Of a DNA stretch of 64,000 bases, positions 61,063 to 62,730 are shown one piece after another. The stretch lies in the NCBI RefSeq assembly GCF_044324875.1, contig NZ_CP172185.1. One strand, written 5' to 3'. Both the position numbers and the translations under genes were made by a program. Under the pieces are notes generated by a model that was not told where the DNA came from, ran no database searches, and saw only the letters and a list, made by a program, of their open reading frames with translations. The first letter of the stretch is position 1. The number at the start of each line of letters is the position of its first letter. Origin of the DNA: Escherichia coli (GTDB taxonomy: Bacteria > Pseudomonadota > Gammaproteobacteria > Enterobacterales > Enterobacteriaceae).

Positions 61063-61214
61063 CATCTCGGGTGACTTATGGGCGATAAAACAGAGAAATC
61101 TTTTTGCCGCGTTCTCAAATTGCTGACAAGTGCTTGTTGTGAAATGCCGGATGCGGCGCAAACTGAACTGCACCCCAAATGTTGGACATAATCTGACATC
61201 TGAAGGTGCAGTTT

Positions 61215-61736
61215 ATGAAACATTCATTTGAAGTAAAACTTGCCGCTGTAAATCACTACCTGGCCGGTCATGCAGGCATCATTTCTACGGCAAAACTCTT
61301 TCAACTTTCTCACACCAGCCTCTCACACTGGATTAATCTTTTTCTTCTTCACGGTCCTCGGGCACTGGATTGCAGACACAAGCGTAGCTATTCTCCTGAA
61401 GATAAACTTTGCGTGGTTCTTTATGCTCTCGGGCATTCTGAGTCTCTACCCCGGGTAGCTGCCCGGTTTAACATTCCCAGCCACAACACGGTTAAAAACT
61501 GGATAAAAGGCTACCGCAAATCTGGTAATGAGGCCTTTATCAGGCGCTGGAAGGAGAAAAGCATGACCCGTTCTGATGATACCCATGAAAACGAGGCAAA
61601 CATGACGCCGGAAGAGATGAAGAATGAGCTGCGTTATCTTCGCGCAGAAAATGCATATCTGAAAGCCATGCAGGAGCATCTCCTGGAAAAAAAGCGCCAG
61701 GAGCTGGAGAAAAAACGAAAGTCATCCGGAGCCTGA
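61215..61736 (+). CDS. IS150-like transposase OrfA
   Basis: MKHSFEVKLAAVNHYLAGHAG..., two HTH repeats, C-terminal leucine zipper; poly-A slippery run near 61688. Confidence 0.8.
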   Translation: MKHSFEVKLAAVNHYLAGHAGIISTAKLFQLSHTSLSHWINLFLLHGPRALDCRHKRSYSPEDKLCVVLYALGHSESLPRVAARFNIPSHNTVKNWIKGYRKSGNEAFIRRWKEKSMTRSDDTHENEANMTPEEMKNELRYLRAENAYLKAMQEHLLEKKRQELEKKRKSSGA

Positions 61737-61840
61737 GGTGCGGACACTGCCAGTCTGACCTGTTAAAGGCTGCAGGGCTGGCCAGAAGCACGCTGTACTA
61801 CCAGCTGTCACTGCAGAAGGCTAAGGACAAGTATGCTGAT

Positions 61841-62563
61841 GTGAAACAGCTCATAGCCTCCATCTTCCATGAACACCGGGGATGTTATGGGTACCGGCGG
61901 ATCCATTGTGAGCTTCAGAAAAGAGGTCTTAAGTTCAGTGGCAAAACGGTGCGAAAACTGATGCAACAGCTCGGCCTGAAGTCTCCTGTGCGCCTGAAGA
62001 AATACCGGTCTTACCGGGGAAATATGGGACTCGCTGCAGAAAATATCCTTCAGCGGCAGTTCAAAGCGGAAGCTCCCTGTGAGAAATGGGTGACAGATAT
62101 CACCGAATTCAGGGCTGGCGGACAAAAACTGTACCTGTCCCCGATACTTGATTTGTTTAACGGGGAAATCGTGGCGTGGGAAACGGCCTGCAGGCCTACA
62201 GAGGAGCTGGTGAAGCGGATGTTAAATAAGGGGCTGGAAAGCCTTGCTGAAGGGGAGAAACCGCTGCTCCACAGTGATCAAGGATGGCATTACCGGATAA
62301 AAAGTTATCAGTCCGCCCTGGCGGACAGAGGGTTAGTGCAGAGCATGTCGCGCAAGGGCAACTGCCTTGATAATGCGGTAATGGAGAACTTCTTTGGTCA
62401 CCTGAAAGAAGAAATGTACTATCGCCGGGACTACAGAAATGTAGAAGAGCTGGAAAATGCCGTTAACGAATACATAACTTACTGGAATCAAAAAAGAATA
62501 AAACTCAGTCTTGGGGGACTCAGTCCGGTAGAATACCGGACTGAGCATCAAAAAGCCGGTTAA
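61841..62563 (+). CDS. IS150-like transposase OrfB (DDE core; probably made as OrfAB by -1 frameshift)
   Basis: WVTDITEF...HSDQGWHY...DNAVMENFFG. Confidence 0.8.
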   Translation: MKQLIASIFHEHRGCYGYRRIHCELQKRGLKFSGKTVRKLMQQLGLKSPVRLKKYRSYRGNMGLAAENILQRQFKAEAPCEKWVTDITEFRAGGQKLYLSPILDLFNGEIVAWETACRPTEELVKRMLNKGLESLAEGEKPLLHSDQGWHYRIKSYQSALADRGLVQSMSRKGNCLDNAVMENFFGHLKEEMYYRRDYRNVEELENAVNEYITYWNQKRIKLSLGGLSPVEYRTEHQKAG

Positions 62564-62595
62564 CTGAAACTGTCCAGGTTTTGGGGTTCAGTTCA

Positions 62596-62730
62596 AACGC
62601 CTTATCCGGCCTACAAAAGCATGCAAATTCAATATATTGCAGAGTTCATGTAGGCCTGATAAGCGTAGCGCATCAGGCAGTTTTGCGTTTGCCATCAGGC
62701 TCAGTTGCCGGGCATAGCCCGGCATCAAAA
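62596..62730. repeat. REP/BIME palindromic elements between IS150-like element and rhlE
   Basis: gccttatccggcctacaaaagcatgcaaattcaatatattgcagagttcatgtaggcctgataagcgtagcgcatcaggca. Confidence 0.55.

What the first reader, a model, noticed from the sequence alone, without database searches (positions are those of the whole stretch)
61164..62598. IS150-like element inserted inside a REP element between ybiA and rhlE
Removing the IS and one copy of the AAC duplication reconstitutes a canonical REP sequence. It is the only IS in the otherwise syntenic core block and may alter rhlE upstream regulation.
Basis: seen in the sequence. Interest (0 to 1): 0.3.

Follow-up and report, generated by a model that had tools for sequence, protein, structure and literature searches.

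The report
IS1397 inserted in a REP loop
This is an intact copy of IS1397, a known E. coli insertion sequence that targets the loops of REP palindromes; it sits downstream of both ybiA and rhlE, so it is an ordinary finding.

Summary
A 1432-bp insertion sequence lies at 61164-62595. It has 25-nt terminal inverted repeats and an AAC target duplication at 61161-61163 and 62596-62598. Removing the IS and one AAC gives a 600-bp sequence that is 100% identical to a natural empty allele (strain 118UI). K-12 has the same REP at this site.

The element is IS1397, not IS150. It differs by one synonymous base from annotated IS1397 copies. Its 449-aa frameshift-fusion transposase is an exact NCBI entry named IS1397 family transposase. 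IS150 is only a subgroup relative (OrfB 51% identical).

IS1397 is already known from experiments to insert specifically into REP/PU loops of BIMEs. In my sample, 11 of 12 copies (6 of 7 loci) lie in PU loops, all in one orientation, with 3-4 bp duplications.

The regulatory suggestion is wrong. ybiA (+) and rhlE (-) converge, so the IS is 101 nt past the ybiA stop and 137 nt past the rhlE stop. It is not upstream of rhlE.

"Only IS" holds for the core block (46455-64000) only. Positions 1-46454 are an accessory island with two IS2 copies and another IS3-family element.

Verdict: known element, low interest.

The parts
60580..61062 (+). ybiA (N-glycosidase YbiA, 160 aa). Its stop codon ends 101 nt before the IS.
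   Evidence: ORF; RefSeq annotation of the near-identical ECA64 locus; K-12 synteny.
61146..61163 (+). Left (5') half of the split y-type REP/PU, GCCGGATGCGGCGCAAAC. It includes the left copy of the target duplication.
61161..61163 (.). Target-site duplication AAC, left copy.
61164..62595 (+). IS1397 (IS3 family, IS150 subgroup), 1432 bp, apparently intact.
   Evidence: 99.9% identity to RefSeq features named 'IS3-like element IS1397 family transposase'; one difference (61265 C/T, synonymous) from the copies in ECA64 and 2021CK-01784.
61164..61188 (+). Left terminal inverted repeat (IRL), starting 5'-TG.
61164..61215 (+). Predicted RNA hairpin that pairs the first 11 nt of IRL with the Shine-Dalgarno region and start codon of orfA. 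It can form only in transcripts that enter the IS from outside (the ybiA side).
   Evidence: -30.8 kcal/mol, z = -4.25, 0 of 200 shuffles fold as well. Its function is inferred.
61215..61736 (+). orfA (173 aa), helix-turn-helix DNA-binding protein.
   Evidence: HTH_28 (2e-17) and HTH_Tnp_1; 28% identical to IS150 InsJ, same length.
61688..61694 (+). Slippery heptamer A_AAA_AAG, in the correct phase for a -1 programmed frameshift from orfA into orfB.
   Evidence: RefSeq annotates 'programmed frameshift' on the same CDS. The fusion modelled at this site is an exact NCBI protein.
61694..62563 (+). orfB reading frame (DDE/rve catalytic domain). It is open from before the slippery site to the stop codon. 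The OrfAB fusion is 449 aa, with D295, D355 and E391.
   Evidence: rve 3.7e-21, rve_2, HTH_21. NF033516 IS3 family transposase, 384.7 bits against a cut-off of 160.
62571..62595 (+). Right terminal inverted repeat (IRR), ending CA-3'.
62596..62598 (.). Target-site duplication AAC, right copy.
62599..62614 (+). Right (3') half of the split y-type REP/PU, GCCTTATCCGGCCTAC, with the conserved CTAC foot.
62615..62649 (+). L linker of the BIME-1. It contains ATTCAATATATTG (62627-62639), which is one mismatch from the IHF consensus WATCAANNNNTTR.
   Evidence: Rfam RF02751 ES036 matches 62615-62657 at 41.5 bits (cut-off 37.6); the same BIME recurs at two other K-12 loci. PMC3333891 describes the BIME-1 L linker and its IHF site. 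IHF binding was not tested.
62650..62679 (+). Intact inverted z1-type REP/PU, GTAGGCCTGATAAGCGTAGCGCATCAGGCA. It is the second unit of the BIME-1 and lies on the rhlE side.
   Evidence: (I4).
62733..64000 (-). rhlE (ATP-dependent RNA helicase), 3' part. The stop codon is at 62733-62735 and the 5' end and promoter lie beyond the end of the window.

Best explanation
The feature is a simple insertion of an apparently intact IS1397, an IS3-family element of the IS150 subgroup. It sits in the loop of the y-type palindromic unit (REP) of a BIME-1, in the convergent 3' intergenic region between ybiA and rhlE.

Shown by the sequence:
- 1432 bp with 25-nt TG...CA inverted repeats.
- orfA (helix-turn-helix) and orfB (DDE/rve) joined by an in-phase A_AAA_AAG -1 frameshift site, giving a 449-aa OrfAB transposase with D295, D355 and E391.
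- A 3-bp AAC duplication.
- An exact natural empty allele.

Inferred from what is established for the IS3 family and for IS1397:
- OrfAB excises a copy as a double-stranded circle (copy-out, paste-in).
- The transposase itself directs integration into a PU loop in a fixed orientation, making staggered cuts 3-4 bp apart.

History. The same insertion, with the same junctions, is in strains ECA64 and CB6837. It lies inside a 4.3-kb tract that is nearly identical between those strains and this genome, while the surrounding DNA is 1-2% divergent. The IS-bearing allele has therefore probably moved between lineages by homologous recombination. Strain BH100 carries an independent IS1397 insertion in the same PU, offset by 1 nt.

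Consequence (inferred). The IS splits the y PU hairpin, which is the first strong structure after ybiA. The z1 PU and the L linker on the rhlE side remain intact. It cannot affect the rhlE promoter. ybiA read-through would enter the IS in the sense direction, but the IRL-RBS hairpin should limit transposase translation from such transcripts.
For: Identity:
- 99.9% identity to RefSeq 'IS3-like element IS1397 family transposase' features. Full-length copies occur in 1707 of 5426 E. coli genomes.
- one synonymous difference from other copies.
- the exact 449-aa fusion protein is in NCBI under the IS1397 name.
- helix-turn-helix and rve domains; NF033516 at 384.7 bits.

Anatomy.

Target:
- K-12 has the REP at this site.
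- a 100% identical natural empty allele exists.
- hairpin z = -5.55.
- 11 of 12 sampled copies, at 6 of 7 loci, are in PU loops, in the same orientation, with 3-4 bp duplications.
- the REP motif is enriched in the window.
- Literature: IS1397 inserts specifically into PUs of BIMEs, and the transposase determines that specificity (PMC1525189 citing Clement 1999 and Wilde 2001 and 2003; PMC3184786; PMC3333891).

Geometry.

History:
- one difference across 58817-63107 against about 2% divergence on the dinG side and about 1% on the rhlE side.
- BH100 has TSD GAG, a 1-nt offset, and 12 differences within the IS.
Against: Nothing contradicts the identification. The remaining weaknesses are these:
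- Transposition activity, frameshifting and IHF binding were not tested and cannot be tested here.
- No significantly stable frameshift-stimulating structure was found downstream of the slippery site (z = -0.48).
- No sigma-70-like promoter passed the consensus scan inside the IS.
- One sampled IS1397 copy (T6SS locus, strain GN25) is not in a PU and has no duplication, so the specificity is strong but not absolute. A title in the reference list of PMC2817692 reports PU-independent transposition in Yersinia pestis.
- The effects on ybiA and rhlE transcripts are inference only.
Confidence: 0.96

Rival explanations
1. The element is IS150 itself, or a close variant of it, that landed in a REP by chance.
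For: The architecture is the same and orfA has the same length (173 aa). The terminal sequences are similar (TGTACTGCACCC versus TGAACTGCACCCC). OrfB is 51% identical to IS150 InsK, which is closer than to IS3 InsF (32%) or IS2 InsD (23%).
Against: DNA similarity to K-12 IS150 is limited to a few short stretches, the longest 70 nt at 76%, and OrfA is only 28% identical. By contrast the element matches IS1397 copies at 99.9%. Insertion in PU loops recurs at 6 of 7 sampled loci, so it is not chance.
Confidence: 0.02
2. The insertion changes rhlE expression by disrupting or replacing upstream regulatory DNA.
For: None from the sequence. IS elements can in general create or destroy promoters.
Against: rhlE is on the minus strand, with its stop codon at 62733-62735 and its start beyond position 64000. 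The IS lies 137 nt downstream of that stop. K-12 and ECA64 annotations show ybiA and rhlE converging. The REP nearest to rhlE (z1, 62650-62679) and the hairpin at 62707-62723 are untouched.
Confidence: 0.02
3. The insertion has a modest 3'-end effect. It removes the y REP hairpin from ybiA transcripts, lets them read into the IS, and exposes rhlE to antisense or convergent transcription from the IS. This could change the stability of ybiA or rhlE mRNA. It would be a consequence added to the best explanation, not an alternative identity.
For: The y PU is the first strong hairpin after ybiA, at -21.3 kcal/mol, and it is split. No intrinsic terminator was found between ybiA and the IS. REPs are reported to stabilise mRNA and to act as terminators (PMC3333891 introduction; PMC1525189 background).
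Against: There are no expression data. The rhlE-proximal z1 REP is intact. No promoter-like site was detected in the IS. The IRL-RBS hairpin suggests that read-through is translationally silent.
Confidence: 0.3
4. This genome did not acquire the IS by transposition. It received it by homologous recombination, importing a roughly 4.3-kb dinG'-ybiA-IS1397-'rhlE segment from another lineage in which the transposition had happened. This concerns history, not identity.
For: There is one difference from ECA64 across 58817-63107, against about 10 differences per 500 bp upstream and 4-5 per 500 bp downstream. The junctions and TSD are identical in ECA64 and CB6837.
Against: The direction of transfer cannot be determined. 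The alternative is that the flanks, not the tract, were replaced by recombination. Only one comparison genome was profiled.
Confidence: 0.55

Closest known systems
IS1397 (IS3 family; described from E. coli by Bachellier, Clement, Wilde and Hofnung, as cited in PMC1525189 and PMC3333891)
   Same: Same length (1432 bp). 99.9% nucleotide identity to annotated copies. The OrfAB protein is identical. The target is a PU loop of a BIME, the duplication is 3 bp, and the orientation relative to the PU is fixed.
   Different: Nothing substantive. This copy has one private synonymous change (61265 C). The occupied locus (ybiA-rhlE) is rare: 3 further strains among 5426 genomes, or 4 if BH100N (78% coverage, junctions not inspected) is counted.
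IS150 (E. coli K-12 insJ/insK)
   Same: IS3-family architecture with a 173-aa OrfA, an A_AAA_AAG frameshift motif, similar terminal bases, and OrfB 51% identical.
   Different: The nucleotide sequence is essentially unrelated. OrfA is only 28% identical. To my knowledge IS150 is not reported as REP-specific (Tobes and Pareja list 1 of 2 CFT073 copies in a REP, PMC1525189).
ISKpn1 (Klebsiella pneumoniae) and other REP-targeting IS elements (IS621, ISPsy8, ISPpu9, ISPpu10)
   Same: They use REP/PU sequences as specific insertion targets (PMC1525189, PMC3184786).
   Different: ISKpn1 prefers Klebsiella-type PUs. IS621 and ISPpu9 belong to the IS110 family, use a different chemistry, and insert beside the palindrome rather than in its loop.
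BIME-1 / RIP (RIB) elements: y REP, L linker with IHF site, z1 REP
   Same: The emptied site has exactly this arrangement. It lies at the 3' ends of convergent transcription units, which is where RIBs were described (PMC3333891, citing Boccard and Prentki 1993).
   Different: Here the y unit is split by the IS.

Membership tests
IS1397 | Nucleotide identity and length matching reference or annotated IS1397 copies (1432 bp). | tested here: met
   1432 bp, with one difference from the copies in ECA64 and 2021CK-01784. The ISfinder reference itself was not available.
IS1397 | Transposase identical or nearly identical to IS1397 OrfAB. | tested here: met
   the exact 449-aa sequence is in NCBI as 'IS3-like element IS1397 family transposase'. 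The same CDS is annotated in ECA64.
IS1397 | Insertion into the loop of a palindromic unit (REP) of a BIME, with a 3-4 bp duplication. | tested here: met
   The TSD is AAC, the loop is CAAA, and a natural empty allele matches at 100%.
IS1397 | Ability to transpose. | not testable with these tools
   All sequence requirements are intact (IRs, ORFs, slippery site, DDE). Activity would need an in vivo assay.
IS3 family | Terminal inverted repeats ending 5'-TG...CA-3'. | tested here: met
IS3 family | Two overlapping ORFs, with orfB in the -1 frame and a slippery A_AAA_AAG motif in phase. | tested here: met
   Whether frameshifting actually occurs cannot be tested here. No significant downstream stimulatory structure was found.
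IS3 family | DDE (rve) catalytic domain, with an N-terminal helix-turn-helix. | tested here: met
   rve 3.7e-21, HTH_28, HTH_21. NF033516 at 384.7 bits against a cut-off of 160. D295, D355 and E391 lie in the WVTDIT, HSDQG and DNAVMENFF motifs.
IS150 (as the same element) | High nucleotide and protein identity to IS150 of K-12. | tested here: not met
   a few short DNA stretches (longest 70 nt at 76%). OrfB is 51% and OrfA 28% identical. It is a relative, not a member.
REP / palindromic unit, y type | Imperfect palindrome of 30-40 nt with a stem mismatch and a conserved GTAG/CTAC at its foot. | tested here: met
   The emptied sequence GCCGGATGCGGCGCAAACGCCTTATCCGGCCTAC folds with an internal mismatch at -21.3 kcal/mol. 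The criteria come from PMC3333891.
REP / palindromic unit, y type | Dispersed, intergenic and repeated. | tested here: met
   4 matches against 0.03 expected; the BIME matches two other K-12 loci; 5-43 places per genome.
BIME-1 | y and z1 units in inverse orientation, separated by a conserved long L linker. | tested here: met
   (I4). The definition comes from PMC3333891.
BIME-1 | IHF binding to the L linker. | not testable with these tools
   There is only a one-mismatch match to the IHF consensus, at 62627-62639.

The most novel reading that the evidence does not exclude
The ybiA-rhlE y-type PU may be a recurrent natural hotspot. Two lineages were hit independently by different IS1397 variants, 1 nt apart and in the same orientation. 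The occupied allele then spreads between lineages as a roughly 4-kb homologous-recombination tract rather than by transposition. If so, natural junction catalogues from thousands of genomes could define the rules by which a DDE transposase recognises a hairpin loop, a mechanism that, to my knowledge, is still unresolved.
Probability: 0.4. Interest if true: 0.2.

Novelty: already known. Interest (0 to 1): 0.08.

Why it matters
It matters little. The finding is a clean natural example of the documented REP-loop specificity of IS1397, with an exact empty allele as proof. Its practical uses are in annotation: name the element IS1397, mark the split REP, and do not assign it a promoter effect on rhlE. 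It can also serve as a rare strain or lineage marker, since it occurs in at most 4 other strains among 5426 complete genomes. The recurrent hit on the same PU and the recombination tract around it are small population-genetic observations.

Tried and rejected
- I tried to read the primary IS1397 papers (PMC94167, PMC95333, PMC169884). They are not held, so I relied on papers that cite them.
- I looked for a frameshift-stimulating structure downstream of the slippery site. The fold is no better than shuffled sequence (z = -0.48).
- The promoter and terminator consensus scan of 60500-63000 found no promoter-like site. It found one terminator-like site, which lies inside orfB on the opposite strand and which I judged to be chance.
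- I inspected a modelled circle junction by eye for an IS3-type junction promoter. It was not convincing, so I make no claim about it.
- A literature search for the Rfam name CssrF returned only unrelated papers.
- At first I thought some fetched loci were missing from the scripting environment. In fact several records share one file (resolved).
- My first BLAST query was offset by one base (61165-62596) because I misread the ruler. This was corrected and does not affect the conclusions.
- I considered and rejected three readings: that the REP halves are part of the IS, that the element is IS150, and that the IS lies upstream of rhlE.

Full report
**1. What is in the sequence**

The interval holds a 1432-bp element at 61164-62595. 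Its 25-nt imperfect inverted repeats are TGAACTGCACCCCAAATGTTGGACA (61164-61188) and TGTCCAGGTTTTGGGGTTCAGTTCA (62571-62595), 84% complementary. A direct AAC repeat flanks it at 61161-61163 and 62596-62598.

The element carries two reading frames.
- orfA (61215-61736, 173 aa) has helix-turn-helix domains.
- The -1 frame is open from before an in-phase A_AAA_AAG heptamer (61688-61694) to the stop at 62563. It encodes an rve/DDE domain.
- A -1 slip modelled at that heptamer gives a 449-aa protein with D295, D355 and E391 in the usual IS3-family motifs.
- That protein scores 384.7 bits on NCBIfam NF033516, IS3 family transposase, against a cut-off of 160.
- The exact 449-aa sequence is in NCBI as "IS3-like element IS1397 family transposase".

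**2. Identity**

Megablast against 5426 complete E. coli genomes finds full-length copies in 1707 genomes. The best are 99.9% identical and all are annotated IS1397. Aligned in register, the window copy differs from the copies in ECA64 and 2021CK-01784 at one base, 61265 C versus T. This is a synonymous change in Ala17 of orfA.

Against K-12 IS150, only a few short DNA stretches align, the longest 70 nt at 76%. OrfB is 51% and OrfA 28% identical. IS3 InsF (32%) and IS2 InsD (23%) are more distant. "IS150-like" is a fair description of the subgroup, but the element is IS1397.

**3. The target is a REP, and an exact empty allele exists**

Removing the IS and one AAC gives GCCGGATGCGGCGCAAACGCCTTATCCGGCCTAC.
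- It folds as an imperfect hairpin of -21.3 kcal/mol, z = -5.55.
- It has the CTAC foot and the stem mismatch that define E. coli REPs (criteria in PMC3333891).
- K-12 has the same sequence at the same place, with one loop difference.
- The 600-bp emptied construct matches strain 118UI at 100% in one piece. 4299 genomes cover at least 80% of it in one place.

The REP is the y unit of a BIME-1. It is followed by a 35-nt L linker (62615-62649) and an inverted z1 unit (62650-62679). The linker matches Rfam ES036 above its gathering score and contains a one-mismatch IHF consensus. The whole BIME recurs at two other K-12 loci. The REP tail motif occurs 4 times in the window against 0.03 expected.

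**4. Landing in a REP is the known behaviour of IS1397**

Papers held in the library state that IS1397 inserts specifically into REP/PU sequences of BIMEs. They also state that this was shown experimentally and that the transposase determines the specificity (PMC1525189, PMC3184786, PMC3333891, citing Clement 1999 and Wilde 2001 and 2003).

I checked this on 12 copies at 7 loci.
- 11 copies at 6 loci lie in PU loops: ybiA-rhlE, yhaL-cyuA, cysE-trmL, ugpB-livF and ybiJ-ybiE. Both y and z types are used.
- In every case IRL lies next to the GCCGGATGCG (or, at the z-type site, GCCTGATGCG) half of the PU.
- The duplications are 3 or 4 bp: AAC, AAAC, AAT, GTAA, TAC, GAG.
- The exception is a copy in a type VI secretion cluster of strain GN25. 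It has no PU and no duplication.

**5. Geometry and consequences**

ybiA (60580-61062, plus strand) and rhlE (stop codon at 62733-62735, minus strand, 5' end beyond the window) converge. K-12 and ECA64 show the same arrangement. The IS lies 101 nt after the ybiA stop and 137 nt after the rhlE stop. It cannot touch rhlE upstream regulation.

What it does is split the y PU, the first strong hairpin after ybiA. The z1 PU and the hairpin at 62707-62723 on the rhlE side stay intact. The transposase genes run in the same direction as ybiA, so ybiA read-through would enter the IS in the sense direction.

Such transcripts would contain IRL. Its first 11 nt are predicted to pair with the orfA ribosome-binding site and start codon (-30.8 kcal/mol, z = -4.25). 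From my own knowledge, this kind of pairing protects IS elements against activation by outside transcription. Its role here is inferred. No expression data exist, so any 3'-end effect remains a hypothesis.

**6. History**

Only ECA64 and CB6837 (each present under two accessions) share this exact insertion. BH100 has IS1397 in the same PU; its derivative BH100N also shows IS1397 beside rhlE (78% coverage), but I did not inspect its junctions.

In BH100 the duplication is GAG, the insertion point is shifted by 1 nt, and the IS differs at 12 positions. It is an independent event.

Against ECA64, the window has one difference across 58817-63107 (4.3 kb). Upstream, on the dinG side, there are about 10 differences per 500 bp, and downstream, on the rhlE side, 4-5 per 500 bp. 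This pattern suggests that a recombination tract carries the occupied allele. Many other strains carry IS1397 about 5 kb away, in the ybiJ-ybiE REP.

**7. Context**

Only 46455-64000 is syntenic with K-12. In that block the IS is the sole large insertion. Positions 1-46454 are an accessory island.
- It contains two identical IS2 copies, each with its own 5-bp duplication.
- It also contains another IS3-family orfB with an ALIL frameshift pseudoknot.
- The junction between the island and glnP lies inside a roughly 30-bp repeat. In other strains the island abuts frlR.

**8. Verdict**

This is a known element behaving as described in the literature, so novelty is "already known" and interest is low.

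Noticed in passing
window 1-46485 (junction at 46455-46485): The first 46 kb is not the K-12 neighbourhood (glnH, dps, ompX and so on). 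It is an accessory island with sugar ABC transporter and fdrA-like genes, a GTPase, DUF932, an antirestriction gene, RadC, YeeU/CbtA and DUF4942. In other strains this island abuts frlR. Here it joins the glnP upstream region, and glnH is absent from the window. The junction lies inside a roughly 30-bp repeat, TTCCCCTCTGGGGAGAGGrTTAGGGTGAGGGG, that is present in both contexts. This is either a rearrangement through a short repeat or an assembly chimera.
   Followed up: partly
window 8311-9641 and 36193-37523: Two 100% identical IS2 copies in direct orientation, about 26.5 kb apart. Each has its own 5-bp target duplication (ATTCC and ATATG), so they are separate simple insertions rather than a mobilised composite.
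   Followed up: yes
window 21696-22628: Rfam ALIL frameshift pseudoknot (116 bits) at 21696-21812, overlapping the start of an IS3-family orfB (21738-22628; about 29% identical to the IS150 and IS1397 OrfB proteins). This is a fourth IS3-family element or remnant in the island. Its ends were not mapped.
   Followed up: partly
window 58817-63107: This 4.3-kb tract (dinG 3' part, ybiA, IS1397, rhlE 3' part) has one difference from strain ECA64. The flanking core DNA is 1-2% divergent. It looks like a recombination tract carrying the IS-occupied allele.
   Followed up: partly
L003 (strain BH100) 2290-3745: An independent IS1397 insertion in the same ybiA-rhlE PU, in the same orientation. The TSD is GAG, the insertion point is shifted by 1 nt, the PU loop is different (CGAG), and the IS differs at 12 positions. 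ybiA is also truncated at its N terminus in that strain.
   Followed up: yes
window 55869-55945; L016 9600-11075: A second BIME lies in the ybiJ-hcxB intergenic region and matches Rfam naRNA4 (CssrE) at 78 bits. In ESC818 and many other strains this REP, not the ybiA-rhlE one, carries an IS1397 (TSD TAC, z-type PU).
   Followed up: partly
window 62615-62657: Rfam family RF02751, 'ES036 (CssrF) sRNA', matches the L linker of the BIME-1 over the full model length. This suggests the Rfam family corresponds to the dispersed BIME-1/RIP linker rather than to a single-locus sRNA gene.
   Followed up: no
L011 (strain GN25) 1500-2931: An IS1397 copy in a type VI secretion cluster (between a DUF4123 gene and vasI) has no flanking PU and no target duplication. 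It is either a PU-independent insertion or the product of a later rearrangement.
   Followed up: no
window 61164-61215: A strong predicted hairpin pairs the outermost 11 nt of IRL with the orfA Shine-Dalgarno sequence and start codon (z = -4.25). It would form only in read-through transcripts coming from ybiA.
   Followed up: partly
window 47934-47943: The glnQ-ybiO intergenic region lacks about 150 bp that K-12 has (K-12 845588-845741). This may be a REP/BIME copy-number difference, but I did not examine it.
   Followed up: no
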